A stretch of 64,000 bases of DNA, from the NCBI GenBank assembly GCA_965178125.1, contig OZ237764.1:372001-436000 (forward strand), given 5' to 3'. Shown in pieces: positions 482 through 62,864 of this stretch. This stretch comes from Bilabrum cf. latius (taxonomy: Eukaryota). The notes beneath the pieces are model-generated. The model ran no database searches. It was given only the letters and a program-made list of their open reading frames with translations, and had not been told where the DNA came from. Position 1 is the stretch's first letter, and each line of letters starts with the position of its first letter. Made by a program: the position numbers and the translations under genes.

Positions 482-3097
482 ATGCGTCAGTCCATTCTAT
501 TCTGTCTTGCCCTGGTACCGGCACTATCTGCGTAGGCTCAAATGGGATTCTGGGTCGACCCGGAGGGCAGCGACGCCAACCCTGGCACCTAGTCTCAACC
601 TTTCAAGACGCCGCAGCATGCTCAGCAGGCAGTTCGCAAGGCCATAGCATCTGGAATGTCTTCCAATATTACGGTGACGATGGCAGCAGGCCGCTACCTC
701 CTGAACACTTCGCTGGCACTTGGCCCGGAAGACTCTGGAAGGGACGGGTACGTTGTGAGGTGGATCGGGGCTCAATCAGGACTGCCTTGGTGCCGCGTGC
801 CGCCATCAACGCGTTTGAACAGCACTTTTACTGGTTTCCTGGCGACCGGATCCTCCCAGTGGGCAGCATCCTGCGACCAGCGGGACAAAACGAACGCGAC
901 TGTTCTAAGCGTAGGTATCCCGGTCCAATCCTGGGAGCCGCCCGCGGCGGGGTCCAAGGCTTGGACCGGCAAGCTTCCATCGGGCAGTACCCCGCTGACC
1001 AGATTCCCGTCGGATCTTGCCGACTCGCTCGGTACTGTCCGCACACGGGCGCGCACCCCTGACCTTGGCCAGTTCTTCGTGTGGGCTGACACCGTGTGCA
1101 AGAACGTTCGCGAACCTCCGTGCACCCAGTTGGCCCGCCGCGGTTTCGTCTATGCCCCCGGGTAGGTCCCTGACTCCTTCTCCCAGCCCCAGCACACGCG
1201 GATGGTCCTGTACCACGGATGGACCGACAGCTCCCACTCAGTGAAATCTGTATTTCCGGGAAACCGCACGGTACTCCTGACGAACCCGGCCGATCGTCCC
1301 ATCGGCTACTGGCCCAACCACGATAGCGAAGGCGGTGGCAGGTATTTCTACGAATCGCTCGAGTCCCTGGACTCTGGAGGCGAATGGTACTTCGACTGGG
1401 AGGGGCAGCAGCCCCTATACATCCCCGAGGCCAAAGACGAGGACCCGAACGACATGGGGTTCGTGCTGAGCGGCAGCACTGAGGTCATTACGATGGAGGG
1501 GGCGCACGACATCGAGATTGACGGCATCTCTGCCAGACACGCCTCGTGGCACTGCGACTACGAGGGGCAGCAGGTGTGCGACAGGCAGAGCACAGCATGG
1601 CAGCACTACGCCGCCATCAACATCGGAGTGGGGTCCAGGCGGGTCGCCGTGCGGAACACTGAGGTGGCGGGCAGCGGGGGTCCGGGCGTCTGGGCCTCTG
1701 CCAACGTCAGCGGTGTGACGATTGAGGGGTGCAGCATCCACGACCTGGGTGGAGGTGGGATCCGGGTCGGCTTTGACAACGCTTTCCTGTCGGGCTATGA
1801 AAGGGCAGCGGCTCAGGATTCCCACACTTATGGCGAAGCTGCGAACAGCTACTCCCATGAGATCCAGGAGCTGCGGGCGCGTCTCCTTTCGGGCAACGTG
1901 TCAGCCGACTCGTACTGCCACGGCAAAGGCAGTGGGCTGGCTGCGTTGTCAGACTTCGACCGTCAGTCCGCCCTGGCCCTTGCTGCCGGGATGCCGCCAC
2001 CCCCAGGCCCAATCAAGCGGCTAGATGACGTGCCTAGCAGCAGCTCCTCTGCCGTTGAGTATCTGCAGGCGGCTACTGACGTCACTGTGCGCGGGAACGT
2101 GGTGTTCAGGGGGGGTCTGACAAGCGCAAGCGGAACCGGGATCGTGGCCCAGTGGGCGATGAACTCATCATTCGAGCACAACGAGCTGCACAGCTTTGCG
2201 TATGCTGGCTTTTCGGTTGGGTGGTGCTGGAACTATGCCGATCCTAGCGGGTCGGGCGGCAATTCGATCCGAGGCAATTACGTGCACGACCTCGGAACCG
2301 GCACGTACCGCCAGCTGGGTGATGCAATGGCGGCGTTTTATACGCTGGGCGTGCAGACTGGCACCGAATTTTCGCAAAACATAGGTCACGACGTTTATGC
2401 ATCGTACACTGGCGGGTACGGGCTGAGCCAGGACCAGGGCAGCTCCAATATCAATTTCACTGGGAACGTGCTTGCCCGCATCAACGCCGCGCCGCAGACG
2501 CAGCACTACGGAATGGGTCAGACGTACGAGAACAACATGTTCTTGTACGGCATGCTGGACGCGTCAACTTTCAAGAACACGCCGGCGCTGCGGTCGGTGT
2601 GCCCGTTGGACGAGCCCAGCAACTACCGCTTCGTTCACAACATCGTGGCATTCTCCAACGCAACGGACAACGAAACGTTCCGCGGAGGTTTCGATCTGGT
2701 GCACCCCGACGGCCAGGGGTCATCCTCCCATCATTTTGACTTCGTGGGGAACTGCTACTGGAACTACGCCAGGCCCGCTTCGGGAGAGTTTGAGAGCCGT
2801 GCGGTATGGGGAGGGTGCAGCGCGGGGTATTGCCACGGCTCCCACGAGGCAGAGCACTTGACGTTCAAGCAGTGGCAGGGAGGCTGCGGCACGGGCGGCG
2901 GGTCCTCTCCGACGAACTGCACCGGGCCTAGGCAGGACGCGGGCAGTGTCGTCGCAGACCCGAGTTTCAAGGGGGACGGCCCCATGGGTCTGTCGTTTGA
3001 GCTTGCAGATGCTTCGCCCTGCTTTGGGGCTGGGTTCTCGAGGATTGACCTAAGTGGGGTCGGCGTGCAGGGGGCATTTGGAGAGTTGCACGAATGA
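482..3097 (+). CDS. Secreted right-handed parallel beta-helix protein, GH141-like glycosidase (~871 aa with TAG=Gln)
   Basis: Signal peptide MRQSILFCLALVPALSA, then FWVDPEGSDANPGT*SQPFKT (N-terminal motif typical of beta-helix proteins), GEWYFD and beta-helix repeats (IHDLGGGGI, NSIRGNYVHD). Three in-frame TAGs (533, 590, 1163) join ORFs 656-1165 and 1202-3097. Ends in TGA. Confidence 0.8.
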
Positions 3098-3299
3098 GTT
3101 TATATTAAAGCGTCCATTAAGACCTATCCAGGGAATCCTCTCACTGATTAATTTGCCAGAGCTGTTCGCTGCAAAGTTAGCTCAACCCCCAACCTAGAAT
3201 CCGGGGCTCTCTACTGGGGAGAGCCAGAGGGGGAGCCCATACCACATTCAATCGGCGCTGACCACTACGCTATACCTCTGCCACAACGAAAAATAACCA

Positions 3300-6200
3300 T
3301 CACGTCGTAGCAGGCAGGCGTTTTCTCGTTGCATCGACGTAATGCATTGAACGCCTGCCTCCAGTCGCCGGTTTCGTGGGATCTATCACACCATGGTTCA
3401 GCCTACCATATGCCCTGCCCTATCGGGGATCGGCTGCATGCAACCCGGGTGCAGCACCATGTGGGTCGGTACCATCCCCGTGGCCTGTCATGTCTTCCAT
3501 CGTGCTGCTGTCAGTCTCAACACGACGAGCATCACCCGGGTCCAGGGCTTCCTGCCTCCGCATCTACCCGGCAGCTTCCTCTCCCGACCGATCGGTTTGT
3601 GCACCGCTATAGCCGCCAGGGGCGTCCCATGGACCCTGCTGATCGAACCCCTGCCCTGACGACGCTTGTCGAACAAACGGAGAGCGCTGAGAAACCACGG
3701 AGCTGGCGGCCATTGTTTGTGCGGTCTCCTACCTCATCATCGGGGCTCCGGCATTGGATCGACCTGCGGTTTCACCACCTTGTGTCATGGATGGTGTAGG
3801 CCCATAGGCCCCATCGCTACGAGCGGTTGATCGCCCTTCAATTTGGGCCGATGCTGCCGGTGACCGGTTCGGGTACCGGGAACTGCCGGGTGACCGCTAT
3901 GGTGACCCGCTCGCGCCTGGGCTTACTCGCTCAAAGGCCTATCTCTGCAGCGAGGATATTCGACGCACCATCCCTGGGGAGTCCGTCGATGGCTCGCCGA
4001 TACTGTGCGCGCATTCGTCGGTCGAAATAACCCGCGGCGAGCCCTAGGGCAAGTCCTCGACAGAGCTGCTGCGAGCCCTGGCAGGCGTTTGCCCACTACG
4101 CGGCACCGGCTGACCAGCTGCCTTGGAGCCCCACTCCACCTGCTGCTCAGGCAGCCTAGCAGCGTGGGCGGTCGGACGGTCAGCTTGTTTCCCTGGTACC
4201 AGAGCGAGCGGAGGCACTACTAGTGCCTGCTTTAGCTCACCAGATACCTCAACCTCGACCTGCTAATCGCCGTCCTGCTGCTCTGCCTCCAGAGAACCGG
4301 GTTCGATCATGTTGAGCAAGTCTCCTTCCCATATTGCCTGCCCCTATTCCACATCGCGCTGCTCTCGCTGAAGCTGTTTCACCAATTCTTCCATCACGGC
4401 AGCGGCTGCCTCTATGGTGAGAACGGCGTGGCATGTCATCTGATCAACGATCGTCGCCTTGCTTCTGTCAGAAAGGCCAGCAAGCAGCTACAAGCTGGCC
4501 CCTTGCAGCTCAACCAATCGCGATTTCGCTTCAGCCAACGTCTGCAACAGTGGATCAGGAATCACGACAAGCTTCTTGAGCTCGGGTGGGAGTCCAGCGG
4601 CAGCAGCAGCTAGAGCCTACCGATGCAGGTCATAGTCCTGCAGTCTAACAGATCTGAACTGAACCGGGATCGACGCAGTCACCAAGCCAGATTTTCGAAG
4701 ACGCAATGCCTCTTCCTTCACGTGCTAGCTTAATGCATGGGCAACATAGCTCTTCACCATCGTGTAACCGGCAGAGCGTTCCTTCATCAAAAAAGCCCGG
4801 CGCTGCATGAATGCTTGTGATGTCCCGGTGAACAGCAGCAGCGCCTGCACCTGAGAGATGTGGCTCAGGACAACCGGGTGAAGAACATCAGTATACGACA
4901 CAATGCTCCGCACAGGATTCAATGCACTCTGTTCCAGCTTGAGCTAAGATTGTGTGGGTACTGCGTGTGGCTGCTACAGCTGTGAGACATCCCAAGTCTC
5001 GGCGGGGCCTCTCTCCAAAGAGTCCTCGCCTGACACTTCTGTGGATGCTGGCATCTACTGTTCTGCAGTCCCTTTTGTAGGGCCATCGTAAGAGTCTCCC
5101 TCGGCGCAGATCATTCCACCCGGTTGGCTGGGCGAATCATGTGGAATTCCAAGAGGTGCTTGATCTTCCCGCAGCTAAGCCGTTTCCGTTTCCCTGTCAC
5201 CACCGGACGAACCTGGCTCATGCCTGCCTCGCTGAGGTGCTTCGTCTACCAGTGGTCCGGACTTGCCGCGGTCGGAATCTCGGCGTTGCGGCGAGCTACA
5301 CTCTTCTTGTTCGTCCTACTCAGCTATCCCCGGGGCAATCGTCAGCGCGCCCGGAGCACTCGTCAGCGCGCCCGGAGGACTAGTCAGCGCGCCCGCGACG
5401 GACATACCACCCACAGTGCCTCCTTGACCAGCATGGCTAGTAGATCGATTATCCACAGCAGATGACGCTGCTGCCGTCGTAGTAGCCTGGTCATCGACGG
5501 CATATGCCCCGCGTAGCGACTCAATCACTCCCGTCAACAAATCATCATCGATAAGCCCCCGCAATTGGTCTGGGTACCTGGATTGAAAGATCTTCTCGAA
5601 CGCGGCGGCTTGCACTGCCTCAGGGTTCGAGGCGGCCAGATCCTTCGCCATGCATGACATGGTCGCATTCGCTTCATCTAGGATAGCTGAGATGCCTGCA
5701 GCGCTACTAGTAGCAGTGTCAGATCCAGGTTTAGGGTCTCCAGCTACGCCAGCCGAATCATCACCGTCCTAACTCACCATATGCACCCTCTCGCACTCGG
5801 GCGCACAGTCTTGCACGTCAAGCACACCGCCCCCCTTGGGCCACTTGATCGACATCTCGTCCAACATCCAGAGACGAAAGGGCGACCCTTCGCTCAGCGC
5901 GCCTGGTTGGGGTATCTGCACTCGTGCGACATCTGCCACGCTGGTGAATGATGTTTCAATGCGCTTGGGGCGAGGCCCACCTCCCGTCCCCGTGCCGGCG
6001 TACCTCACAAAGGTCTCGTCAGTCAGCGCTTTGATCCTGTCGCCTGGGGGCAACAGCACATCGCCAGCGATGAACCGCCATGGGCTGCGTTCTGCTGCCG
6101 CTTTATTGCGCCCCCAAGCATGCTGGGCACAGCTGGCAGAGCCAGCTGCGGTCGCAGCAGCCTGCCCGTCGACATCAGGATTGGCGAAACCCTGCTGCGC

Positions 6201-8180
6201 GTCCGGGGGCACGATCCCTGCAGTCTCCAGATCCACGCACGCCAGCATCGACCTGCACGCGTGCTCCCATTCCTCCACGCGGTACCATGCTCGCATCAGC
6301 GGGTGGTGCATGTCGATGCTCCCAGGAGACGGCCGGCCCGCCTGTGTATCAGCGTCGATCCATCGAGAGATGGGCCGCTCCAGGCAGCTGCACGCCAAAT
6401 TGTGCTGGCCTTTCTAGAACCTCGCTCGAATGGAATCCAGGTCCCAATGGTCGCTGAAATCCGGCAGGGCAGCGTCGGACTCTTGCACTCGCAGCCGAGG
6501 GTTGCTCCAGCCGCTCAGTTCTCTGTCATCTTGGCGGCACGTAGGCATCTTGCTCAGCAAGAAGTTGTCGCCCTAGTCTGTCGCTAGCACTCCGACGATC
6601 GCTGTCCCGGGCGAGGACTGCGAGAATTGTAGGACGTAGCAGCCCCTGTATTCGGCGGGGTCTGGACGCATACGAGCTTCTTGCTTGCACGCCTTGAGGA
6701 CGAACTGATTGGCCGCTAGCTTGTCGTCACCAATGGCAGGCACGATCCCGCCCGCGCCTAGGGTCCTACTGCTGGGCCTGCTGCACGAGAAGGCCCTCCT
6801 GTGGAGGCCCTGGATGGGCAGCGGGAACTACGATTCCACAAGGGAGGGCCAGCTGGCTTCCAATTGAGAGTCGCCCCAGCCAGTGCCCTGCCCGCCCCCT
6901 GGGCGACTGGCGTGCTTGCGGGGCACCAGACCTTCGCACACTCCCCGCCTCATGCTGTCGATTGTGCGGTTCAATCGCGACTGCCAATCATACAGTTTCT
7001 GGCATTCTACTTCCGTAGAAACGAACACTTCACTGGTTGGGGCGGCCGTGTATGCACCCTGGACCTCGAGTCTCACTGCGCCTTCGTGCGCTGGTAGCAG
7101 CCGCACTGCTGAATGCCTCATGGGACTCTTTATGCTGTGCTTGTCGTGCCCAGTAGCTGCACCTGAAGAACACCCCGTTCTCAGCATGGCATCCACGAGA
7201 GGCAGCCCATGCAGGTTGCCCACGTGGCTGGCCCACTCCTCCCTCACCCACTCCTCCTTGCTCTTTTTACCAGATGTGGACAGCCCGCGGGTGCCAGGGC
7301 TAGGAGTAGCCACGGCGGGATCGATTGTGGTTATCGCCTTATTCGAACTCTCCTCCGGCTCGCTGTATGCCCCTCGTGGCAGCCACACGCCAGGCCACAG
7401 CTGCGGTTCTTTGGCTCCCGCCACTGGCTGGACGGTGCTGATTTGTCCATCTCCTAACGGTGCGAGGTCGGATCCAGGCGCGGATACGCCTTCCAGCAGG
7501 TTGCTCACTGCCACCACAGGAGCAGGATAGATGAACGACTCCTCCTCGTGCGTCCAATCGTCACCGGTGACCGCAACCGCCCGGCTCAGGAGCAGCCCAC
7601 CCTTGTGCTCCCACGGGCACAGACGCAGCAGCCAGGTCCCCGGCTTGTGCACGATGCCCAGCAGCAAGTCCGCCGCAGGACGGGTCTGCATGCCCTGGAA
7701 GCAGTTGAATGCCACGTCCAGGGCCAGCAGCCGGAAGGAAGCCTCCATCACGCAGAGCTTCCAGGAGTTGGGATCATCCTTGTTCCATAGGTAGTTCACA
7801 TTCATGCACAGCATGACGCCGAGCAGATCGAGGAAGAGGACATCTCTGGTGGAACAATGCTGGCTGAATGTGAATTCGTGTGAATCTCGATCGAAAGGTG
7901 CAGCCGGCGGCTTGCCTACCTGGTTAAGTGCCAGTTTCCAGACGGCGATGCATCGGTCAGCCATGCCGGGGTGAACTCTATGACTAGTGATCAACTCACG
8001 CATGGAAGATCTGAAGGCTTCCCAGGGTACGGTAGGAAGTAGTTCTTGCTTGCTGCGGTAAGATCGTTGGTGGTGGGCAGCATGGTTCTTAGTGCATTGT
8101 TGGAGCATTGACGTCCAGAAAACGTCATGATGCGCTCACTTGTCAAATAAAGCCTGCCAGAATAGGATACTGCAGTCCAT
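3300..8180 (-). CDS. Unknown-family protein, tandem paralog 1 (~1600 aa; exons 8180-8140 and 8052-3300)
   Basis: A single frame links ORFs 6828-8108, 5769-6398, 5316-5660 and 4725-4922 through about 20 TAGs, with no TAA/TGA until the TGA at 3300. GT-AG intron at 8139-8053. Shares blocks with paralogs 2 and 3. A further upstream exon is possible. Confidence 0.75.
5340..5396. repeat. 21-bp tandem repeat x~3 (coding, GALTS[AP]P-like)
   Basis: Three copies of gtcagcgcgcccg at 21-nt spacing, inside paralog 1. Confidence 0.7.
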
Positions 8181-8372: not shown

Positions 8373-11300
8373 TTAGGAAGGGTCCGCCTCCACACCCGGG
8401 ACTGCCGCGAGTTGCGCGCTTACTGTCTGCCCGGGAGGCCTTGGGAAGCTGGCTCCAGTCGGGTCTGTCGTGCTGGCAGAGCTCTCCCTCGTGCACACCG
8501 ACGCACCGCTTCCGCTAGCCATCCTAGCAGACCCTCCACCTGCTGCATCGGATTCTAGACTGGCCACGAGAGAGAGGATCAATTCCGAGTGCACAGCATG
8601 CTGCAGCCGCATCGGGTACCTGTGTCGAAACATGCCCACAAACGCGTCCAGCTGCTGCCTAGTATCCCGGTCGGTGCACCTTGCAAGCCGACCAGCTGCC
8701 GCGTCCATGAGATTGCCTGCCTGGTCCAGCATACGATTGATGGCCTTCTCCGACGCGATTGCTGCTGTATCTCCGGCGCTGGCTGCGGTAGACTCGCGGC
8801 AGCAGGCAGTGGTGCTGGAGGGAACATATCTGGCCATCGGCACCCTCTCGCACTCGGGCGCACAATCGTGCACGTCCAGCACACCGCCACCCTTCGGCCA
8901 CTTGATCGACAGCTTGTCACTGATCCAGGAGCGGAACTGCCCATGTGCCTTCATCGCTCCAGATTGCAACACGGCCCGTCTAGCTGCTTTGACCGGGATC
9001 CCGGAACCACCTCCAACCTCGCTGCCGGTAATTTCACCGAGCTGCGTCCCCCTCCCAGTCAGTGCTCCGTGTCCGCGCTGGGCTCGGGGTCCGCCGACTG
9101 CGACTGCAGCGCGCACTGCAGCATCCCTTTCACTTGGGTGCAGCAGTAGATCACCCTGTGCGAATCGAAATGATGCCTCTGAAGGCTCTGAGGATTGAGG
9201 CTCTGAAACGTGAGGCACATCGGAATGTGGAAGGGCGACACCTCCCGCTCGCCCGCCTGCGACACCAGCAGTATCCGCCTCTGCCTGTGGCGAAACGATC
9301 CCTGCAGTCTCCAGATCCACGCACGCCAGCATCGACCTGCATGCGTGCTCCCATTCCTCCACGCGGTACCATGCTCGCATCAGCGGGTGATGCATGTCGA
9401 TGCTCCCAGGAGACGGCCGGCCCGCCTGTGTATCAGCGTCGATCCACCGAGAGATGGGCCGTGCGAAGCAGCGGTGACTCAGGCCACACCGGCCGGGTGT
9501 GAAGCGGTCGCGAATGGCATCCAAGTCACGGTGATCGCTGTACGCAGGGGAAGCGGTGTCAGTTTCCTATAGCTGCAGCCTGGGAGTGCCCCAGCCCGCT
9601 GCTCCTTCGTCCCAAGGGCGCTCGGTCATAATCTTGCTGAGCAGCTGGGTCGTGCCCTAGTCTGTCGCTAGCACCCCGACGATCGCTGTCCCGGGCGAGG
9701 ACTGCGAGAATTGTAGGACGTAGCAGCCCCTGTATTCGGCGGGGTCTGGACACACGCCTGCCTCTTGCTTGCACGCCTTGAGGACGTACTTGGCTGCTTG
9801 CTGTTTATCATCGGGAAGTCTTGGCACGATCCCGCCCGCGCTGCGGCCCCTACTGCTGGGCCTGCTGCACGAGAAGGCTCGCCTGTGGAGGCCCTGGATG
9901 GGCAGCGGGAACTGCCTGCTAGCTAAGTCTGGCCATACCTCGGTTGGCCGAGTTGCCCCACCATATGTCGAAGCGATGCGTGCTTGTTCGTGTTCCTAAC
10001 CACCAGCCAGCAAATTGCAAACCGAGCGGCGCAATGACTCAATGGTGGATGCCATGCGAGTTTTCCAGTCCAACCGGTCCGAAGCCCGGGTAGACGCTGA
10101 AGTAGCTCCATGGTAGAGTATGGGGGCCGATCCTGCCCCAGATCGACCTCTAGCCGATTGCGACGGTTCCGGCACACGGACCTCGTTGCTAAGACTCAAC
10201 ATCAATTCGCCGCTTGCAAGCACCGCAGGCATTGACAGCAACATGTGCTCCACTGGGCTCGACTTGATTTGTTCCCCAGCAGCATCGCCTGCAGCTGAAG
10301 GGAGCGCTGAGGACTCCCCAGCATCGGAGTCCACACGACCAGCATGCTAGGGCCCAACGGAGGGATCTGATCGGGCGCTAGCCGCGGAAGCGGCGGTAGC
10401 AGGATCGCTTGGCAGTGTCACCATAGACGTATGGCTTGACGATGTGGGGGGATCCGTGTCCCGGCCACCTGCATGCTCTTCAAATCTGCCTCGGCCTCCA
10501 TGATTTGCCAGCAAGACCTGTACGTGCCTGTTCCATGCTTGCTTCCAAGGTGCTACGACAGCCTTAATCCAGCGCGCATCGGACACCCAGACCTCTGCAA
10601 TATCACCGTACATAGATCGCACCGGACCGGATTCTGAACCTGCTGCTGTCGGCGCCGTTGAGACAGGAGTAGCAGTAGCAGCAGGCACAGGAGGGAGAAA
10701 CCCGCGCACACCGCCGTACGGAGACCTCTGTGGTGTCGTACCAAGACTGTCCGCAGGCTGTGCAGATAAGCGCACGGCAGTCTCTGGCTGCAACGTACTT
10801 CTAGCTCGTGCATCATCGTTTATCGTGGCAATTGGTGCCTGGTTGACCACTCCTCGTGGCAGCCAGGCGCCTGGCCAGAGTGCCAGGCAGCTGTCTGAAG
10901 CGGCCCTTAATTCTTCTCCAGGCGCGGATACGCCTTCCAGCAGGCTGCTCACTGCCACCACAGGAGCAGGATAGATGAACGACTCCTCCTCGTGCGTCCA
11001 ATCGTCCCCGATACCCGCAACCGACCGACTCAGGAGCAGCCCGCCCTTGTGCTCCCACGGGCACAGACGCAGCAGCCACGTCCCCGGCTTGTGCACAATG
11101 CCCAGCAGCAAGTCCGCCGCAGGACGGGTCTGCATGCCCTGGAAGCAGTTGAATGCCACGTCCAGGGCCAGCAGCCGGAAGGAAGCCTCCATCACGCAGA
11201 GTTTCCAGGAGTTGGGATCATCCTTGTTCCATAGGTCGTTCACGTTCATGCACATCATGACGCCAAGCAGATCGAGGAAGAGGACATCTCTGGTGGAGCA

Positions 11301-11629
11301 ATGCTGGCTGAATGTGAATTCGTGTGAATCTCGATCGAAAGGTGCAGCCGGCGGCTTGCCCACCTGGTTGAGTGCCAGTTTCCAGACGGCGATGCATCGG
11401 TCAGCCATGCCAGGGTGAACTCTATGACTAGTGATCAACTAACGCATGGAAGATCTGAAGGCTTCCCAGGGTACGATGGGAAGGAGCTAGTCTTGCCTGC
11501 GACGGTAGATGTAGATTATATAGGCTTAGAATATCGTTGTCGAATCATTCGCATAATGCGTATCGGACACATGTATCGGGGCTCGCACCTGATGAACATT
11601 GTTTTCCAAAATGCAATCGCAGCCTGCAT
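8373..11629 (-). CDS. Unknown-family protein, tandem paralog 2 (~1054 aa; exons 11629-11589 and 11496-8373)
   Basis: One frame joins ORFs 10347-11438, 9996-10334 and 8373-9524 through TAGs and ends in TAA. Intron 11588-11497 is at the same position and phase as in the other two copies. Confidence 0.75.
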
Positions 11630-19261: not shown

Positions 19262-19474
19262 ATTCTGTTGATATTCGAAGCAGTTCGAGTTTGAATCTTG
19301 TGGTTCCGGTATTTCAGATCCAGCCAGGTCACGTGGGGGCAGCAAAACAAGCTTGAACGTGCGCCAGATAGCATGCAATCGAAATCTGTTGTATTTTGCA
19401 CCTGCTTGGGCGTACTGCTTGATAGTTAACACATTCCATCCCCTCCCTCTTCCCCCCAGTGGCACAGGTCTCAG

Positions 19475-53688: not shown

Positions 53689-54001
53689 GCTTTGGTCCGC
53701 ATCTCGCGACAGTTCCAATTCCGGTTTTTCGGGCGGTGACGGTCTCAGGACGTCCCGGGGCGCAGCTACCTCGATTTGAATATTCAGAATTTTTAGGGTT
53801 CAGTAGTATTTATCTGCCGGTCGCTCCGCTGTAGTTAACCATCGAGTGCGATTCAGTGTTCTTCTTCGCGGTATGTCAAGTTTCAAGGCTGCAATGGTGA
53901 GGTGGCACAATAAAGCATTGCCTGGTCCTATCTGGTAAGTGGTTCTAATTGTTTTTTTAATGTATATTGTTCATATGTGTACGCAGGAACAAGACGCAGA
54001 G

Positions 54002-55804
54002 ATGCCTGCGGCAGCGAATACTTCAGGAGCAGCCTCAAGGCCACCAAAGCGTGGAGCGCCCTCGCAAGGTAAAGGCACCTCACCCAAGAAGCGGCGCAAG
54101 TCGCGCAGCAAAATTCCACCGATCCCAACATTGAAATATACTCCGGGGACCAGCGAGCCATCTTCGTCCCCACACGCGTTCCAGGCCACCTTGCAAGGCC
54201 GGAAGCTTGAACTGCGAGAGGCCGAGGCCGCGGCAAAACAATCGATTCGAATGGGATACTGGAATGTTAATGGAATTCGGTCGTTTTTGAAGCGATCCAT
54301 AGGGAGCACGTCGTCCTCTAAGGCCGCTGCGGCTCCAAAGGCTTCTATAGGCGGTGCCAATGAAGCTGCTAGTGCTGGGGCAAGCTCAGGCCCTGCAGTC
54401 GCCGAGACGGGTAACAAAGTCCCGACGGCAATCAAGGAAACCGATGCATCGGGCCGCGCCTGGCTGCACGCCTGGACCGCTGGAGACGACCTGGACGTGG
54501 TTGCGCTAGCAGAAACCAAGATCGACGACGAGGCTAGGAAGAAGGAGCCGCTCCTGCACAGCAGTGCGATGCTACCAGGGCATACGATCCGGCTGTGGGC
54601 GTGCACGGCCCCGGAGAGGAAGAGAGGGTACGCGGGTGTGGCCGTGTTCATCCGAGACAGGCCCCACTGCCGGCCGATCCGCGTGCTCCGAGGCGTGGAC
54701 GATCCCACTTTAGACCTGGAGGGGAGGGTGCTAGCCGTTGAGTTTGAGGACTGCTGGGTCATGTTCTGCTACATCATGAATTCTGGGATGAAGCTAGAGC
54801 GGCTAGAGCTGAGGACGGAGACGTTCGATCCTGCATTCCGAAGGAGGGTTCGCCAGCTTCAGGAAGGAACGTTCCCCGAAACAGATGACGAGTGTGCCTT
54901 CGTCCCGGAGAAAGAACCTTCGCTGGAAGAAATGAAAGCCGCTGGCAAGAAGAAGGGGAGGAAGAAGCCCGAAGGCAAGGCCAAGGCTGGTGCCGGTGCT
55001 GCATCGGGCACGCTCGATGCCTTCATGAAAGCGGGCGCCGCAACGTCCTCCTCCTCATCCTCCTCCTCGTCCTCATCCTCGTCATCAGCTGCTGCCACTG
55101 AATCGGTTGCTCCTGCTGCTCTGCCTGCCCGCCGCCCCAAGCCGGTGGTGGTCGTGGGCGACCTGAACGTGGCTCACCTGCAGTACGACATATACCACCC
55201 CAATGTAGCACGCAACAAACGACCCGGATTCAGCGACTCGGAGCGGAAAAACTTCGCCCTGATGCTGGAAGAGAACGGCCTGGCAGACCCTTGGCGCCGC
55301 ATGCACCCAGGCCTGCAGCAGTTCACCTACTGGGGCATGATGGGACCGAGGAGGGAGAGGAACGAGGGCTGGAGGCTGGACTACGTGCTGGTTCCGCAGC
55401 AATGGGTGCGCGGCGCCGGCGTATCGGCGGCTGCCACATCAAACGGGGCAAAGGATGGGCCTAGCTCGGGCGCAGGATCAGGTGCTGCTGGTGCTGCTGC
55501 TGCTCCCAAAGGCTGGCACAAGCAGGGCGACTTCGGTTTGCTGGGCATGGCGCAGCAGCCCCTCGAGGCACTGCCCGACCACTTGCGCGAGGGGGCAGGG
55601 GCGGTGCAGCAGGAGTTCCAGGAGAGGGTGGCAAAAGGGGAGGAGATAGAGGCGGTGTCGGCTGAGATGGCCGAGGAGGAGGCGGTTGCAACCGCCGGGC
55701 TGGAGCTGCCGGCTGGCCCGCTTCTGGACGTTTTCGTTAGACCATCGGCGGTGGGATCGGATCACATGCCGCTCGGATTTGAGGTTGCAACCGGGCGCGG
55801 GTGA
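54002..55804 (+). CDS. APEX1: AP endonuclease / exodeoxyribonuclease III (EEP family)
   Basis: YWNVNGIR, LAETK, GYAGVAVF, EGRV, GDLNVAH, FTYWG, GWRLDY and GSDHMP. Ends in TGA. A likely intron lies upstream at ~53935-53987, so the start is uncertain. Confidence 0.9.
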   Translation: MPAAANTSGAASRPPKRGAPSQGKGTSPKKRRKSRSKIPPIPTLKYTPGTSEPSSSPHAFQATLQGRKLELREAEAAAKQSIRMGYWNVNGIRSFLKRSIGSTSSSKAAAAPKASIGGANEAASAGASSGPAVAETGNKVPTAIKETDASGRAWLHAWTAGDDLDVVALAETKIDDEARKKEPLLHSSAMLPGHTIRLWACTAPERKRGYAGVAVFIRDRPHCRPIRVLRGVDDPTLDLEGRVLAVEFEDCWVMFCYIMNSGMKLERLELRTETFDPAFRRRVRQLQEGTFPETDDECAFVPEKEPSLEEMKAAGKKKGRKKPEGKAKAGAGAASGTLDAFMKAGAATSSSSSSSSSSSSSSAAATESVAPAALPARRPKPVVVVGDLNVAHLQYDIYHPNVARNKRPGFSDSERKNFALMLEENGLADPWRRMHPGLQQFTYWGMMGPRRERNEGWRLDYVLVPQQWVRGAGVSAAATSNGAKDGPSSGAGSGAAGAAAAPKGWHKQGDFGLLGMAQQPLEALPDHLREGAGAVQQEFQERVAKGEEIEAVSAEMAEEEAVATAGLELPAGPLLDVFVRPSAVGSDHMPLGFEVATGRG

Positions 55805-56475: not shown

Positions 56476-57068
56476 GGATGTACAAGAGGGGCAGCAATTC
56501 GTACCTCAAACCCCCTTACCAGCGGCAATCGCCTCCTTCTGAGCTGTGGCAGCGTCCATTCTCCGTTTGAGTTTGAAATATTCAACCATTTGCCGTTTGG
56601 GACTCAGCTGTGACGGAAGAATGGAGCAAAGCTTGAGTAATTGGTAGATTGAGACCACAGGCTAGTCCTTGTCGGCGGACATGCGTGCGATTAATCTGCG
56701 CTCACATCCTCCAGTCTAGATTCTAGCACAGCTTGCAATTTGTCTACCGCAATCGATGCGTACGACTGCGACAGTGTGCGACACAACCAGTAGTTGCACT
56801 ATTTATTCAGCGCAAAGCACATGAGACAGAGCAGGGCCTTGTGCGACATCTTACCCGTTCTAGAGCAAGATTGCGCTATAATTCGCATACAATCAACACA
56901 GCCGAAACATACAATAAGATACAGGCCGCTAACCATTCCATTTGGCTGGGTATGAACGAAGTAGTTGCGACTGGAGGTTGCGACCGCCGTGCGCCGGCGA
57001 CCAACGGATCCTTGCGTGCGATAGTCTAGCCTTCACAAGTGTTCGGGCTGCACTAGTCAGCCAGTCTT

Positions 57069-60000
57069 ATGTCGATGGATTCTCTTCACGATGTGGCCGA
57101 GACTGCCTTGGATCGGTGGAAGCAGAAATTTCGAGCAGAGGTTGGGGCTGACGCTGGGTTGCCGATGGACGAGTCGGACTTTTTGCAGCACTTGGCCGCT
57201 CACAGACAATTAGGGGCAGATGGGAAGAAAGACATAGTTGAGAGCGTACACTGGCCTAGAAATTCGGGGAGCATTAGTCCCAGACCAATGTCTGCCCGTC
57301 CCAGCATGCGAACCGGCTATGGATTCGATGAATCGACCTCAAAACAGTTCAAAAGTGCCAGGCCAACGAGCGCACGCGCTACAGCATCTCGCACAGGAAA
57401 AGGACCGAAGCTGCACAGAGTTGGGTTTTCGGCAGCGCACCACAAGTCGCGAATCAGACCGCGCACGGCAGCCACGGCTCGGACAGCCGGGGGCAACACT
57501 GTGCTCACGATCGGCCGCAGAGTGCTAGTGGGGGGCGACGCTCAGACAGGAAATGCACCATTCCATGACTCAGACGCATTGAATAGTCCGCGATCCAGCG
57601 CCCGCGGCAGCTCCCGCGTAGGGCCACCTGCCCTGACCGTGGGAAGCGCGGCCACCGGGGACAACGGCGCGCTCGTCACGCCGACAGTTGCGAACGACGG
57701 TCAGATTTGGTCGCACCATGGTGACCGAGACCCAGCAGGCCGCGCCAGCCCCAGCCCAGTCACCCGAGTTGATCTCGCCGGCCACGTGCAGCTAGGGCCG
57801 AGGACCCGGCAGTCCGACGTCCTCGGGATTGGGGGCATACCTGCCTGGGGAACACAAGCCTCGCAGGTGCAACCGGTTGCAGCCAATTTGACCCGACCAC
57901 AGTCTGCTCGGGCCCGCAGAGCACCCGCTGGAGCGGGCGAAGGTGCAGCAAGCGGCCTAGGCCTCGGTGGTATCGCCTCCACCCCCATCAGGAGGCCCTC
58001 CACCGCCAGAGCCAGTCGGAGCAAGGACCCGGAATCGGAATTCAACGGCTCCTCGAAGGGCCGTCCTTCCACGGCGGGGGCCAGGCGTCCTCGCCCCCCG
58101 CCTTCCTCCACGACGGCAGCCGCCGCCGTGCGCATGGCGGGGCGGCCCCTGGGCTCCAGACCCCGGTACCTGAGGGAAGCGGAGATTCCCGGCGGAACGT
58201 TTAGCCGGAGGAGGGACAGATCGGAGCGGCCCTGGACGGCCGGTCCGAGGGGTGGGGCTGGGGTAGGCAGCAGGGGACAGGGGTTGGGCCCTGCGTGGGC
58301 CTTTGAATCCGGAGAGCAGGCAAGGCAGCTGCAGAGGGAGCGTGCGATCGTTGAGGTGCTGCTGGCCGGTGATGATCCCGTGAATGCTCTCAGGAACATG
58401 GCCAAAGGGAGGCGCGGATCCAACAATGTGGTTAAGCCAGGATCTAGTTGGATCCGCGCCTCCGACGAGCTTGATGGGGTGGTCAAACAGGCGGGCGCTC
58501 CCTCCGGCCCGGGCATGCCAGTGCCAGTGCAAGCACCCATGCCAGTCCCACGGGTAAGGTCACAAGCGTCAGACAGCAAGCATGCCATGGACGCTGTGTT
58601 TCCTAAGGCCGGTGACGATTCTCTGTTCCTTGACGAGGGCAAGGAGCAGCAGGAGCGCAAGGATGAGCTAGGCCTAGCTAGCAGCGATCAAGGAATCGAT
58701 TCCGAGGAGGCGGATGGCAGTGACACTGATAGCGATGGATTGCGAGAGACCGTGAAAGTCATCGAGCACAGCCACGGGATCGTGCAGCTGCTGAACGACG
58801 CCGCAAAGAGCAGGCGGAAGCACTCACACTCCCAGGACGGCCCAGAAGCGCCAGGAGATGCCGCTTTAGCCAGCGGCGTGGATAGGCTGCACGACCTGCA
58901 GCGCACCACCGGCAGGCACCCGGTGCCTCGTCCCCCACCTCACAAAAATGCCACCACCGCCACCACCCAGCAGCGGCACGACAGTGCCCGACACACAGCA
59001 TCAGATGGAGCAGCAGAGCTGGCAGATGCGACCGAGCGCGGAAGCGGTGACGAAGCAACGGGCGATGACATGGTTCACGAATCGTCGCAGTTGCATGACG
59101 GCGAGTTCGTTGACGAGGAAGAGGCCATCCAGGAACCGGAAGAGCTGGAGGACCCTCGGTACGCCTCCACGAAACTCATCCCCGCTGATGATGAGGCCCA
59201 GATTGCGAAGCTCCTCCCGCCCAGACTCATCGCCAGGATCAATCGAATGCGCAGCCGATTCGACATCGCTGCGGCAGCGCAGGACACGAGCCTTCGGCTG
59301 CTGCGAAGCAGGGTCAATCGGGCCGAGGCCAGCGCAGGGGACGCCGTGGCAGAGGCCATGCGGCTCCGTGCCGAGCTCAGGAAACTGCAGGCCGTCCGAT
59401 CGAGGGAACAATCCGAGCAGCGAGCCGTGGCGTCTGACGTGAAGGGGTGGCAGGACGAGTGCGACCGTCTCGGGCGGTTGCTACGCAGGGAGCGGGTCGA
59501 GCATGATGCCACGCGGGACGACTTGAGGAACGTCCGCGACGAGGCCTCTGGGGCGTGGCACGAGCTGGTGAGACTAAGGGAGGCCATGCGGTCCGCTGAG
59601 TCGGAGCTGAGTCACCAGGAAGGCAAGGTGCAGAGCAGGGGCGTGTCGCTGCACGGTGCCGGGCTGGAGGAAGGAGGTGTGGCGCAGCGAGCACGGGAAC
59701 TGGCACTTGCGCTGCAGCGGGAGCTAGACACGGCGGAGGCTAGGCTGCGCGCTAAGAGGGAAGAGCTGGAGGAGGAGAGGATCAGGCACGACCGGGAGCT
59801 GCAGAGGATTAGAGACGAGCTCACGATGGCCAAGGCGCGGGTTCGAACCCGGGATGCCACGGTCCAGCAGCAGAAAAAACAGATCGCCGAGCTGAAGTCG
59901 AGGGCCAGCGCCGATGCTGCTGGAGCCAAGGAGGAGCTGGAGGGGCTGCGCAGGCAGGTTGAGTCCCTGAACGGGCAGATGGGTGCTCTGAGACAGGAGG

Positions 60001-62864
60001 CCTCCAAGGCGCGTAAAGAGCTTGGTGAGGCGAAGGCTGCAGCAGCTGCAAGCGCTCAGCGCGTGGAGTCTATGCAGAAGGAAGTGGAAGAGGCGGCTCG
60101 GCTGTCGGACGAGGCCGAAGACGACATGCAGCGGATGCGCGGGGAGCTTGCCGAGGCCCAAAGCAGGGAGGAGGCAGAGCGGGAGCACGTGGTTGAGCTG
60201 CTGGAGAGGGTGGGGCGCCTGAAGGAGGCCAATGAAGCGCTGGAGAAGAAGGTCGTCGAGCTGGAGGCGCGACACGCTGCTCTTCCACAGTTCTGGAAGG
60301 AGGCGCTGATGGACGTGGGCAGCGGCAGCAGCACGGTGGAGCCCGGGCGTGGGCGTGGGAGCGGAGCGGGGGAGGAAGGGCTGCTTGGCGAGGGCGAAAA
60401 GCCCAGCTCGATGACGGATGGTGTGACGAGTACTGTGGGCACGGACTTGTTCTCTGTGTCCGAGGATCCCAGGGAGGGAATGGCGGATCCGTCGGGCATG
60501 GACGGAGACGGCGACCTGGACGGCGTGCACCGCGTGGTCGCTGGAGAGTCGCTGGGCGGCGGGGACGTGGAAGGGACGTTGGATGCCGCAGGCGGATCCA
60601 GCGCCACGACGGGCCGTGGCAGCAAAGCATCGCTTGCACCCTCCTCCACGGACCGTCCCCAGTCGCGTGCTTCCGGCATGAATAGCCAGGCGGGCGGTTC
60701 TTCCGTTGGAGGTGCGTCGGCTCCCACCACTCCAGTGGACGGTAGGCATAGAGCAGTGTCGGATGCAGGGGGATCACCGATGAATCGAAAGCTGCAGGTG
60801 CGGCCCACGTCTGCTGCCCTGCATCGCCCTGGCTCGTCTGCTCTCATGGGGTCGAGCGGCAGCCCAAAGAGGCCGCGCGCCGCTGGCCGAGCAGGGGTAG
60901 CGTCACAGTCCATGCCCAACCAGACGTCGATGCTTCGGGCTGCGCTCGAGGCTACGGAACAGGCGGCCGAGAGGCGCATCCAGAGCGTCAGGGGCGAGTT
61001 AGCCTCGGAGCGAGAGGGTCGGAAGGGCCTACGCAAGGAACTGCAAGAGGCCCGAGCAAAATCCACATCCGTGAGGATGCAGCTGGCCGCGCTTAGAAGG
61101 AAGGTGGCAAGGGGAAGCAATGAGCTCGAAGCTTTGCGCGAAGAGCGGGAGCAGCTGACAGACGACCTTGCCCTGGCTTCGGGCAAGGTGGCCTAGCTGG
61201 AGGAGAGCCTCAAGGAGTCGAGCACCCAGCTGTCGCATGCCAGATAGCAGGCTAAGCAGAGCGAAGCTGACCGCAGACAGGCTGCCTCTAAGGCGGCTAT
61301 CTACGAGCACCAGCTCAAGCAAGCTGAGGACTGGCGCAGCGATGTGCAGAGCGGAGTGGGCAAGTGGCGGGCGGACGTCAAGTCAGAGGCGCAGGATCGG
61401 ATCATTTAGCTGGCCAGGGGACTGAAGGACATCGACCTGATGCTGCGGGATGCCGCCGGACTTGCCCGCACGGTTCCGCTAGGGACTCTCATGCAGCCAG
61501 GATCGGCCCGCTCGCAGGTGAAGGACAGGTTTGAAGAGGTGGCTGGCATGACCAAGCACGCCCAGCGCAAGCTCAGCAGCACCGCAAGGCGATGCACCAC
61601 GGCGCTGCAGCAGCTGCACGTCGGTTTCCCAGTGCTGCTGCCCTCCGCACTCGGCGCGTATGCTTCTTCCGAGTCAAAGCAGGCGTACAAAATCATGCAT
61701 CTGGACGAAGATGACGGCCAAGGAGCTAGAGATGGGGACCATGATGGGCCTGCAAGCGGATCAAAACTGGTTATTAGGAATGACGCGAGCCCCAGGGACC
61801 GTCGAGAGGCTCCCGGCGGATCTGGACCCAAGGGTGCCCGCAAGCGGAGCAGGTCAGTGTCCAGGGGAAGCGTGCACAGCAAGGCACGGGCAGGTGCTGG
61901 GCGGGAGGGAGATGCAGAACACGGCTTGGGACACGCTGCCGCTGCCGAACCGACCAACGCAGCACCGCGCACCCCGCGCAAGCAGTTGTTTGGAGGTGCA
62001 ACGGATCCCACGGATGACGCAGACGACGAGTGGGGCGGCAAACCGGGGGCAGCGCCGGCAGGGAGCCCTCAGAGCGTCGTCGCTGGTGTGACGAGTGATG
62101 GTGTGACGAGAGCATCTTCGGGCGCGGCAGTGGCATCGTCCTCGGCTCCGAGGTACAAGCACCTCGAAACCGACGACGGCTCCCACCTGCCTCCCATGAG
62201 GCGTACTAAGCATGTGCCTGACATTGAGCCCGCCGGCAGTTCTCTTCAATCGAAATCGGGCAGGGGGCGTGGATCCAAGAGAGGGAAGAGGAGTCCCATG
62301 GCAAGCAGCAGGAGCAAGGGGGGAGAACGAACAACCGCTGCCAAAAGCACAAGCACAAGCAGAAGCCCAACATCGAGGTCGAGTCCAAGCCAACAAGAGC
62401 ACAGTGAAACCTCAGTAGACCCTCGGCAGATGCACGTGCATAAGGCAAAGTGGACGGACGGTGGGCTGGCTAGCGTTAGCCGCACTGGTGTGACGAGTGC
62501 GCGACTGAACATGCGGCTAGGTGGCGATGGTGAAGACAAAGACGATGAGTCAGGCTCGCCAGCCAAGACCTAGCGCGGTGGCAGTGCCGAGGCTCGTGGG
62601 GCTCGCGGGGTCGGCGTTCCTCCCGGATCCATGGGTAGTCCAGGCGCGGGGCGGCTTGTTTCACGCGGAAGCATAGGCAGGGGTTCGTCCGTTTTGCGCG
62701 CGTCGAGAGGCGCGCGGGGCACAGGGCATGGTCTGTCGGGGGTGCGCACTGGCAGCGTGCATGGTCCAGGGCCAGGGCCAGGGCCAGGGCCAGGGTCTGG
62801 CAGTCGGATCGGCGATGCCATCGCAAAGGCGGTCGAGGAAGGCGCACTGGGGTTCAATGGGTGA
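57069..62864 (+). CDS. Very large coiled-coil protein with disordered termini (~1930 aa)
   Basis: ORFs 57069-61196, 61440-62573 and 62631-62864 share a frame and are joined through four TAGs, three in or just after the coiled coil (e.g. KVA*LEESLKE). RPxSA/RPSTA motifs. Ends in TGA. Confidence 0.75.

What the first reader, a model, noticed from the sequence alone, without database searches (positions are those of the whole stretch)
482..62864. Non-standard nuclear genetic code: TAG is a sense codon (Gln) while TAA and TGA remain stops
Seen in sequence: most genes carry in-frame TAGs but no internal TAA/TGA. Examples are about 25 TAGs in the 7.2-kb frame 43306-50547 and about 20 in the 4.75-kb frame 3300-8052. 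Conserved genes (SEC63, AMT, NASP, ESS2, NPL4) are also affected, with motifs intact on both sides of the TAG. Of 19 reconstructed gene ends, 14 are TGA and 5 are TAA; none needs TAG. Established: most eukaryotic reassignments change UAA and UAG together. UAG-only reassignment is rare (UAG=Gln in the fornicate Iotanema spirale, UAG=Leu in a rhizarian, a few ciliates). Inference: this GC-rich, compact genome looks unlike those AT-rich lineages, so it may be an independent origin. It would need a tRNA-Gln(CUA) and an eRF1 that distinguishes UAG from UAA.
Basis: partly seen in the sequence, partly recalled or inferred. Interest (0 to 1): 0.97.

Follow-up and report, generated by a model that had tools for sequence, protein, structure and literature searches.

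The report
TAG read as glutamine, nuclear genome
In this GC-rich eukaryotic chromosome stretch the stop codon TAG is used inside genes as an ordinary glutamine codon while TAA and TGA still end genes, a rare kind of genetic-code change seen before only in a few unrelated microbes.

Summary
Seventeen long frames, closed only by TGA (13) or TAA (4), cover about 90% of the window. They hold 136 in-frame TAGs in 19,109 codons and no in-frame TAA or TGA.

TAG is as common in frame as out of frame. Coding signal continues after TAG but falls after TGA and TAA.

TAG means glutamine. In the GH28 gene, two TAGs sit in columns that are Gln in 114 of 133 and 45 of 134 aligned library homologues. The ammonium-transporter TAG is CAG in a 73%-identical metagenome relative. 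Paralogue columns favour Gln over every other residue.

Contigs from two runs that carry GT..AG splice joints keep TAG unchanged at 34 sites, so whole-sale editing is excluded.

TAA behaves as a true stop.

The code table itself is known. It is "genetic code 15", also reported for Iotanema, Protocruzia and some phyllopharyngean ciliates. The lineage looks different: weakly stramenopile-like and not a ciliate. This is probably a new, independent case.

A tRNA-Gln(CUA) and eRF1 could not be checked, because no genome is held for this window.

The parts
350..3097 (+). Frame of 915 codons, beta-helix protein, 3 in-frame TAG, ends TGA
3300..8135 (-). Frame of 1611 codons, first of three tandem paralogues, 20 in-frame TAG, ends TGA. 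The TAG at 6828-6830 is aligned to CAG in both paralogues.
8373..11525 (-). Frame of 1050 codons, second paralogue, 6 in-frame TAG, ends TAA
11862..15869 (-). Frame of 1335 codons, third paralogue, 14 in-frame TAG, ends TGA. The TAG at 15480-15482 is aligned to CAG in both paralogues, in a locally identical context.
16043..19474 (-). Frame of 1143 codons, no Pfam family, 7 in-frame TAG, ends TAA
19475..22546 (-). Ammonium transporter gene (Pfam E 1.2e-74), 1 in-frame TAG at 21806-21808 inside the domain, ends TGA. A metagenome relative, L001, has CAG at that codon.
23254..26016 (-). DnaJ/Sec63 gene. Its 1 TAG, at 23266-23268, lies three codons before the TGA stop.
26558..28363 (+). Frame of 601 codons, no Pfam family, 6 in-frame TAG, ends TAA
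29393..31981 (+). Partial paralogue of the Sec63 gene, without a J domain. 8 in-frame TAG. The TAG at 30572-30574 is aligned to CAG in a locally identical context. Ends TGA.
32187..33821 (-). GH28 polygalacturonase-like gene, 8 in-frame TAG, ends TAA. The TAGs at 33372-33374 and 32664-32666 lie in Gln-conserved columns.
33588..37391 (+). NPL4-like gene (weak Pfam match), 12 in-frame TAG, ends TGA. 11 of the TAGs lie inside a transcript-like contig with no differences.
37590..41219 (-). GH63/MGH1-like glycosidase gene, with an intron at 40748-40937 (GT..AG on the minus strand). 3 TAG lie downstream of the intron. Ends TGA 11 codons after the Pfam domain.
41270..43042 (+). Gene with two GT..AG introns (41224-41307 and about 41717-41927). 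4 TAG lie in its exons. Ends TGA.
43303..50547 (+). Frame of 2414 codons with two internal repeats of about 470 residues. 25 in-frame TAG. The last sense codon is TAG (50542-50544), followed directly by TGA.
50652..53441 (-). Frame of 929 codons with weak ARM-repeat hits, 9 in-frame TAG, ends TGA (TGA TAA TGA in a row)
53939..55804 (+). Exo/endonuclease-phosphatase (APE/ExoIII-like) gene. It is the only long frame without a TAG. Ends TGA.
56637..62864 (+). Frame of 2075 codons, coiled-coil protein, 7 in-frame TAG, ends TGA

Best explanation
The window is nuclear DNA of a GC-rich, gene-dense eukaryote whose cytoplasmic translation reads UAG as glutamine. UAA and UGA remain the only terminators. 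This is the table known as genetic code 15.

Shown here:
- UAG is an ordinary, fairly common sense codon, about 16% of all Gln-type codons.
- It is used like a non-preferred synonym of CAG.
- It is present as UAG in the transcripts.
- It occupies Gln-conserved positions.

Inferred from the logic set out for Iotanema in PMC5304391, section 9 (read):
- Decoding needs a tRNA-Gln with anticodon CUA, most simply a mutated copy of tRNA-Gln(CUG). That anticodon pairs with UAG but not UAA.
- It also needs an eRF1 whose N-domain no longer recognises UAG efficiently.

With up to 25 UAGs in one gene, decoding must be nearly complete at each site. Leaky read-through would not give full-length protein.
For: (1) TAG density. 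The 17 frames hold 136 in-frame TAG, 0 TAA and 0 TGA in 19,109 codons. The two other frames hold 149-152 TAG, 51-70 TAA and 313-396 TGA.

(2) Coding signal. A codon-usage score over the 40 codons after a TAG averages +0.116 (n=131). After the 17 TGA/TAA ends it averages -0.089 (Mann-Whitney p=6.6e-7).

(3) Conserved domains. TAGs lie inside the Pfam and PDB-aligned GH28 and ammonium-transporter domains, with alignment on both sides.

(4) Gln identity.
- With TAG masked as X, the GH28 TAG at query position 43 faces Q in 114 of 133 aligned hits out of the 150 best library hits. The TAG at position 279 faces Q in 45 of 134, the commonest residue.
- In the 16 closest hits that I aligned, out of those 150, the figures are 11 of 11 and 13 of 13.
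- The transporter TAG is CAG in L001, which is 73% identical.
- 20 paralogue, repeat and relative observations give lnL -47.6 for Gln, against -61.2 for the next residue, Asn.

(5) Synonymous behaviour. Per gene, the TAG share of Gln-type codons tracks the CAA share (Spearman 0.67, p=0.003) and falls with GC3 (-0.59, p=0.012).

(6) Transcripts. Runs X5 and X6 carry contigs with two GT..AG joints that are absent from run X1. The listed pieces of X5, X6 and X8 cover 34 in-frame TAGs of their own genes with 0 other letters.

(7) TAA as a stop. 4 of 17 ends are TAA, and the score falls after each (-0.07, -0.008, -0.27, -0.26). The GH28 TAA falls in the alignment column where homologues P0175 and P0212 also end. 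From the CAA:CAG ratio I would expect about 43 in-frame TAA if TAA were Gln (my arithmetic). None is seen.

(8) Close relative. A 94%-identical library protein, P0173, ends exactly one residue before the GH28 TAG at codon 386. A standard-code gene caller would produce this if the relative carries the same TAG.
Against: - No tRNA gene of any kind lies in the window and no genome is held. The decoding tRNA and eRF1 are therefore unseen.
- There is no peptide evidence.
- Four of the six GH28 TAG columns are variable and show no Gln majority: position 19 has Q in 5 of 36, position 294 has T commonest, position 333 is mostly gaps, and position 410 has Q in 4 of 31.
- The transporter TAG column reads V, I, Y, Y, T in the five more distant homologues that cover it.
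- Paralogue observations are not independent. TAG and CAG are also one transition apart, which favours that pairing whatever TAG means.
- The kind of runs X5, X6 and X8 is a guess by the tool (X5 is labelled 'probably DNA'). Contigs drop rare variants, so partial editing cannot be excluded.
- Two of 17 genes have a TAG within their last four codons. Dual use of TAG as a stop at gene ends is therefore not excluded.
Confidence: 0.9

Rival explanations
1. UAG has a dual, context-dependent meaning: glutamine inside genes but still a terminator at some gene ends. This would resemble the ambiguous codes of Condylostoma, karyorelicts and Blastocrithidia.
For: Two of 17 genes have a TAG at or next to the end. 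The 2414-codon frame ends TAG-TGA (50542-50547). The Sec63 gene has a TAG three codons before its TGA. In one gene (56637-62861), the 96 codons after the last TAG score near zero (0.026).
Against: About 0.47 such terminal TAGs are expected by chance in 17 x 4 codons at the observed TAG density, giving P about 0.08 (my arithmetic). That is not significant. Every frame has a TGA or TAA end after which the coding score falls. In 13 of the 14 genes whose tail was long enough to score, the frame-0 score after the last TAG is positive. The one negative tail, in GH28, is still aligned to homologues. The terminal TAGs can equally be relics of former UAG terminators, now read through to a nearby back-up stop.
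Confidence: 0.06
2. Both UAG and UAA mean glutamine (ciliate-type code 6, as reported for Amoeboaphelidium protococcarum). Under this reading TAA is merely rare because the genome is GC-rich, and TGA is the only stop.
For: TAA is the rarest of the three triplets in the window (203, against 505 TAG and 804 TGA). Passages in PMC5304391 and PMC6299283 report TAG and TAA as Gln in Amoeboaphelidium.
Against: There are 0 in-frame TAA in 19,109 codons, where about 43 would be expected from the CAA:CAG ratio (my arithmetic). Four frames end at TAA and the coding score falls after each. Reading TAA as sense adds only short, non-coding-like extensions. The GH28 TAA coincides with the C-termini of two homologues. 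Sec63 matches point to stramenopiles rather than fungal relatives.
Confidence: 0.02
3. The DNA carries TAG, but the mRNA is edited (U to C) to CAG, so the standard code applies.
For: TAG faces CAG in paralogues and in a relative, which editing would also explain.
Against: Contig pieces from runs that carry spliced forms cover 34 in-frame TAGs with no differing letter.
Confidence: 0.01
4. UAG is a sense codon but stands for a residue other than Gln (for example Glu, Lys, Leu or Tyr).
For: Several TAG columns are variable. Paralogues show K, T, E, R and A opposite TAG in 12 of 20 observations.
Against: The two strongly conserved columns are Gln (114 of 133, 45 of 134). The self-calibrated likelihood puts Gln 13.6 log units above the next residue. 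TAG use tracks CAA use.
Confidence: 0.01

Closest known systems
Iotanema spirale (Fornicata) nuclear code: UAG=Gln, UAA kept as stop (PMC5304391; section 9 and passages read)
   Same: Only UAG is reassigned, and to glutamine. UAA and UGA terminate. The same decoding logic applies: a CUA anticodon is the only one that reads UAG but not UAA.
   Different: Iotanema is an anaerobic metamonad known from a transcriptome, and the paper calls UAA its dominant stop. Here TGA dominates (13 of 17 ends), the DNA is 58-64% GC, and the best Sec63 matches are stramenopiles. Its eRF1 change (T32G in the GTS motif) could not be compared.
Protocruzia tuzeti and two phyllopharyngean ciliate lineages: UAG=Gln with UAA as stop (PMC11687900; passages read)
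   Same: The same codon table, which arose independently several times.
   Different: Those are ciliates. This window is a long multi-gene stretch with spliceosomal introns and no ciliate affinity in the searches.
Genetic code 15 (TAG=Gln) as used by crAss-like and Lak phages (PMC9523058 and others; abstracts seen). NCBI's name 'Blepharisma nuclear code' for this table is recalled.
   Same: An identical table. I read the frames as table 1 with TAG=Q, which I take to be identical to table 15; table 15 itself was not run.
   Different: Phages recode within a standard-code host, often only in late genes. Here it is the cell's own nuclear code.
UAR=Gln codes (code 6: many ciliates, Ulvophyceae, Hexamita, Streblomastix, Amoeboaphelidium protococcarum; PMC11687900 and PMC6299283 passages)
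   Same: A stop codon is reassigned to glutamine. The likely origin is a mutated tRNA-Gln.
   Different: In those codes TAA is also Gln. Here TAA ends 4 of 17 genes and never occurs in frame.
Other UAG-only reassignments: Rhizaria sp. exLh and some ciliates (UAG=Leu), Scotinosphaera (UAG=Ser) (PMC5304391 and PMC11687900 passages)
   Same: UAG is uncoupled from UAA.
   Different: A different amino acid. Here the conserved columns are Gln.

Membership tests
Nuclear genetic code 15 type (UAG=Gln; UAA and UGA stops) | In-frame UAG in real coding regions at the density of a sense codon | tested here: met
   There are 136 TAGs in 19,109 in-frame codons, against 149-152 in the other frames. The coding score continues after TAG. 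TAGs lie inside the GH28 and AMT domains.
Nuclear genetic code 15 type (UAG=Gln; UAA and UGA stops) | UAG occupies positions that are glutamine in homologues | tested here: met
   Q faces TAG in 114 of 133 and 45 of 134 aligned hits at two GH28 columns; the other four columns are variable. L001 has CAG at the AMT TAG. The likelihood test favours Gln.
Nuclear genetic code 15 type (UAG=Gln; UAA and UGA stops) | UAA still terminates and is absent from reading frames | tested here: met
   There are 0 in-frame TAA. 4 of 17 ends are TAA, with a fall in coding score after each. The GH28 TAA lies at the C-terminal column of two homologues. This covers the window only.
Nuclear genetic code 15 type (UAG=Gln; UAA and UGA stops) | UGA still terminates and is absent from reading frames | tested here: met
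   There are 0 in-frame TGA, against 313-396 in the other frames. 13 of 17 ends are TGA. The GH63 frame ends 11 codons after its C-terminal Pfam domain.
Nuclear genetic code 15 type (UAG=Gln; UAA and UGA stops) | UAG is present in mature mRNA (not edited or spliced out) | tested here: met
   34 in-frame TAGs lie inside contig pieces of runs X5, X6 and X8 with 0 differences. X5 and X6 carry GT..AG joints that X1 lacks. The run kinds are the tool's guess.
Nuclear genetic code 15 type (UAG=Gln; UAA and UGA stops) | A cognate tRNA-Gln with anticodon CUA | not testable with these tools
   The window has no tRNA gene and no Rfam match. No whole genome is held.
Nuclear genetic code 15 type (UAG=Gln; UAA and UGA stops) | eRF1 N-domain changes that weaken UAG recognition | not testable with these tools
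   eRF1 is not in the window, and no genome is held.
Nuclear genetic code 15 type (UAG=Gln; UAA and UGA stops) | Peptides with Gln at UAG positions | not testable with these tools
   No proteomic data are on hand.
Code 6 type (UAA and UAG both Gln) | In-frame TAA at Gln positions, with TGA the sole stop | tested here: not met
   There are 0 in-frame TAA, and 4 gene ends are TAA.

The most novel reading that the evidence does not exclude
This is an independent origin of the UAG-only-to-glutamine code in a lineage where no nuclear stop-codon reassignment has been described. The lineage is a GC-rich, intron-poor, gene-dense protist whose Sec63 is closest to stramenopile proteins. Close relatives at 93-94% protein identity apparently share the same TAG positions. 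A relative at 73% identity has CAG at the one site compared.

A GC-rich genome should not lose TAG by mutation pressure, so the case would argue against simple codon capture. The TAG-TGA and TAG-NNN-NNN-NNN-TGA gene ends would be relics of former UAG terminators.
Probability: 0.45. Interest if true: 0.8.

Novelty: new member of a known kind. Interest (0 to 1): 0.66.

Why it matters
Nuclear stop-codon reassignments outside ciliates are known from only a handful of lineages. Cases where UAG and UAA are uncoupled are fewer still (PMC11687900, passages).

A further independent case would be a useful natural experiment on how a stop codon is captured:
- The genome is GC-rich and TGA-dominated.
- UAG already makes up about 16% of glutamine-type codons.
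- Near and more distant relatives are detectable in public data.

The questions it opens are which tRNA-Gln copy changed, what changed in eRF1 and in glutaminyl-tRNA synthetase, and what became of genes that used to end in UAG.

There is also a practical point. Standard-code gene callers cut this organism's proteins at every TAG, as the library proteins P0173 and P0052 appear to show. Its annotation and any phylogenomic use need table 15.

Tried and rejected
- No whole genome is held for the window, so no genome-wide search for tRNA, eRF1 or rRNA was possible.
- ARAGORN found no tRNA in the window. Rfam found no family at gathering score.
- The look-up of sequencing runs listed no RNA holder. 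The run kinds are guesses. Parts of the laid stretch had no cover in X6 and X8.
- A metagenome scan with the conserved domain of the tandem paralogue family found no relative.
- The second scan, with the ammonium transporter, gave one useful locus (L001) and two distant ones.
I did not send that protein anywhere afterwards. An atlas call with a TAG-free Sec63 stretch confirmed the family but gave no useful taxon.
- The listing of cluster members gave no organism for the exonuclease hits.
- The exonuclease search gave only unnamed hits, at no more than 53% identity over a small part of the query.
- A first self-BLAST of the 2414-codon protein returned only the identity hit. Cutting it into segments worked.
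- Six literature searches found no report of a UAG=Gln nuclear code in a stramenopile or other GC-rich protist. The library lacks most subscription journals, and supplements were closed, so this is not proof that none exists.
- Rejected readings: pseudogenes or sequencing errors. Only one of the three stop triplets is affected, the TAGs are identical in four runs, and one position is apparently shared by a 94%-identical relative. Also rejected: TAGs hidden in introns, because transcript-like contigs keep them.

Full report
**What the window is.** The 64-kb window is 58-64% G+C throughout.

Read from stop to stop with TAG as a sense codon, it resolves into 17 long, non-overlapping frames of 544 to 2414 codons on both strands. 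Together they hold 19,109 codons, about 90% of the window. Under the standard code the same DNA gives only eight frames of 1500 nt or more (18,879 nt in sum). With TAG as sense it gives 20 (63,069 nt).

The controls matter here. Reading TAA as sense adds little (11 frames, 24,501 nt). Reading TGA as sense also lengthens frames in this GC-rich DNA (20 frames, 45,390 nt), but its longest frame is unchanged at 4137 nt, against 7242 nt for TAG.

Pfam recognises these genes:
- an ammonium transporter (E 1.2e-74)
- a DnaJ/Sec63 protein
- a GH28 polygalacturonase-like enzyme
- a GH63/MGH1-like glycosidase
- an exo/endonuclease-phosphatase
- a beta-helix protein
- weakly, NPL4

The stretch is eukaryotic and nuclear. 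Contigs of two public runs skip two GT..AG introns in one gene, and the tool lists a weaker joint (28 letters on its shorter side, what lies between unknown) whose ends read GT..AG on the minus strand in the neighbouring gene. The contigs of the run that holds the whole stretch do not skip them.

**Is TAG in frame more than chance would give?**

- The 17 frames contain 136 TAG, 0 TAA and 0 TGA. Counted only from each frame's first ATG, there are 127 TAG in 18,475 codons.
- The zeros follow from how the frames were drawn. But the other two frames of the same DNA hold 51-70 TAA and 313-396 TGA, about 2% of codons. Frames of hundreds to thousands of codons free of both are therefore real coding frames.
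- TAG is as frequent in frame (136) as out of frame (149-152). It is not depleted at all, which is not the pattern of a rare read-through site.
- A codon-usage score trained on the frame cores stays positive after TAG (mean +0.116 over the next 40 codons, n=131, 76% positive). After the 17 TGA/TAA ends it turns negative (mean -0.089, 12% positive; Mann-Whitney p=6.6e-7).
- TAGs lie inside the regions of GH28 and the ammonium transporter that align to solved structures, with alignment continuing on both sides.
- 27 of the 127 TAGs fall in the first tenth of the ATG-to-stop frames. I take this to mean that some frame starts still include leader sequence. At least two of the 136 lie in non-coding parts: one in an intron, and one upstream of the out-of-phase intron of the GH63 gene.

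**Which amino acid?** The best evidence comes from GH28.

A full HMMER search of the 1.84-billion-protein library gave 4615 hits. I compared the query, with every TAG masked as X so that the aligner was blind, with all 150 listed hits. The six TAG positions gave:

| Query position | Aligned hits | Result |
|---|---|---|
| 43 (window 33372-33374) | 133 | Q in 114 |
| 279 (window 32664-32666) | 134 | Q in 45, the commonest; R in 30 |
| 19 | 36 | Q in 5 |
| 294 | 105 | T commonest |
| 333 | 50 | mostly gaps |
| 410 | 31 | Q in 4 |

The last four columns are variable and uninformative. In a MAFFT alignment of the 16 closest hits that I picked from the 150, positions 43 and 279 are Q in 11 of 11 and 13 of 13.

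The one TAG in the ammonium transporter (21806-21808) is CAG in L001, a 2-kb metagenome contig whose product is 73% identical. In five more distant homologues that column reads V, I, Y, Y, T.

Inside the window, TAG faces CAG in locally identical context in two places: the three tandem paralogues (15480-15482; also 6828-6830) and the Sec63 paralogue pair (30572-30574).

I pooled 20 TAG-versus-residue observations at local identity of 0.4 or more. Their likelihood was computed under substitution tables taken from the same alignments. Gln scores -47.6, Asn -61.2, Lys -64.6 and Glu -70.4. These observations are not independent, and TAG and CAG are mutational neighbours. I therefore weight this test below the GH28 columns.

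Finally, TAG behaves like a non-preferred glutamine codon. Its share of Gln-type codons per gene rises with the CAA share (rho 0.67, p=0.003) and falls with GC3 (rho -0.59, p=0.012). The most biased genes (Sec63, AMT) have one TAG each, and the exonuclease has none. The TAG:CAG ratio (0.25) is close to TTG:CTG (0.30) (numbers).

**Are TAA and TGA still stops?** Thirteen frames end in TGA and four in TAA.

- After all four TAA ends the coding score falls, as it does after TGA.
- Reading TAA as sense only adds extensions of 6, 15, 84 and 246 codons that score as non-coding.
- The GH28 TAA falls in the column where two homologues, P0175 and P0212, also end.
- The GH63 frame ends in TGA 11 codons after its C-terminal domain.
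- If TAA were a glutamine codon used like CAA relative to CAG, about 43 in-frame TAA would be expected. None is seen.

The ciliate-type code 6, reported for Amoeboaphelidium (passages of PMC5304391 and PMC6299283), therefore does not fit.

**Is the TAG in the RNA?** The look-up of sequencing runs listed no holder on record as RNA. Laying four runs nevertheless showed the following.

- X5 and X6 (one study, two samples) carry contigs that skip 41224-41307 and about 41717-41927, with GT..AG ends. Their pieces begin and end at gene borders.
- X1 covers the stretch in three long unspliced pieces.
- The listed pieces of X5, X6 and X8 have 0 differing letters and 0 gaps. They cover 34 in-frame TAGs of their own genes, out of the 56 TAGs in the laid 20 kb (after dropping two that lie under a neighbour's contig).

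So UAG is present in the transcript consensus, and wholesale editing to CAG is excluded.

Caveats: the tool labels the run kinds as guesses (X5 'probably DNA'). Only 32 of 249 pieces were listed. Contigs hide minority variants.

**Relatives.** Two library proteins look like what a standard-code gene caller makes of a close relative.
- P0173 is 94% identical to GH28. It starts at an internal Met and ends exactly before the TAG at codon 386.
- P0052 is 93% identical to the transporter. It starts 25 residues after the window's TAG.

The shared TAG is therefore an inference.

**Mechanism.** The following is inference. It follows section 9 of PMC5304391, read.

- An anticodon that reads UAG but not UAA must be CUA.
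- Its simplest source is a duplicated tRNA-Gln(CUG) with one anticodon change.
- Glutaminyl-tRNA synthetase uses the anticodon as an identity element and may need to adapt.
- eRF1 should have lost affinity for UAG while keeping it for UAA and UGA.

With 20-25 UAGs in single genes, per-site decoding must be close to complete.

None of these parts lies in the window, and the genome is not held.

**An open detail.** Two of the 17 genes have a TAG at the very end: TAG-TGA at 50542-50547, and a TAG three codons before the TGA at 23254-23268. At the observed TAG density about 0.47 such cases are expected (P about 0.08, my arithmetic).

They may be relics of former UAG terminators rescued by a nearby back-up stop, or a hint of residual termination at UAG. 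The window cannot tell which.

**Lineage and novelty.** The Sec63 query found 38 proteins.

- The named ones, including cluster members, are diatoms (Leptocylindrus danicus, Fragilaria crotonensis), the raphidophyte Heterosigma akashiwo, oomycetes (Phytophthora, Peronospora, Hyaloperonospora), an MMETSP entry whose name is cut after 'Paraph', and one haptophyte (Pavlova gyrans). Two fungi come far below.
- These matches cover only 9-20% of the query, essentially the J domain. The stramenopile affinity is therefore weak.
- The nearest named transporter is from a choanoflagellate, at 43%.
- No named protein is close, so the organism is poorly represented in the libraries.

The code table itself is known. 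UAG=Gln with UAA retained is reported for Iotanema spirale, Protocruzia tuzeti and two phyllopharyngean lineages (PMC11687900, passages). It is called genetic code 15 in the phage literature (abstracts).

Six full-text searches found no report for a stramenopile or any GC-rich non-ciliate protist. The library is incomplete and supplements were closed.

**Verdict.** The finding is real and correctly read. It is a new member of a known kind of code, and probably an independent origin.

Noticed in passing
3303-15869 (-): Three tandem paralogous genes share an N-terminal domain of about 230 residues (68-83% identical) and a second conserved block. Neither block has a Pfam family, even at E up to 1. 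A metagenome scan with the domain found no relative.
   Followed up: partly
23257-26016 (-) and 29393-31978 (+): The Sec63 gene has a nearby partial paralogue. It is 54-57% identical over about 300 residues, plus a C-terminal block, and it lacks the J domain. The two copies face away from each other across about 3 kb.
   Followed up: partly
19475-19477: The ammonium-transporter frame and the next frame downstream (16046-19474) are in the same phase, separated by a single TGA. About 70 codons of apparently non-coding sequence follow without a TAA or TGA. This is probably chance (about 1 in 4 by my estimate), not read-through.
   Followed up: partly
50630-50642: Transcript-like contigs of the convergent genes 43303-50547 (+) and 50652-53441 (-) overlap by 13 bases. 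The trailers would be about 95 and 22 bases, which is very tight packing.
   Followed up: no
42411-42455; also 37102-37155 and 44178-44294: A short Asp/Ser-type codon repeat draws many partly matching contigs from elsewhere, giving depth spikes and loose ends. Two further stretches were skipped by the tool as repeats.
   Followed up: no
37567: One base is left out in one contig each of X1 and X5, between the NPL4-like gene and the GH63 stop. It looks like a length polymorphism in non-coding DNA.
   Followed up: no
L001:940-2094: The transporter gene of the 73%-identical metagenome relative has an intron-like insert after the residues '...WIW', where the window's gene is continuous. That contig is 52.7% GC, against about 60% here.
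   Followed up: no
43303-50544 (+): The 2414-residue protein has two units of about 470 residues that are 37% identical. Ser/Pro/Thr-rich linkers lie between them and, by my reading of the translation, there is a hydrophobic stretch near the C-terminus. No Pfam family matches.
   Followed up: partly
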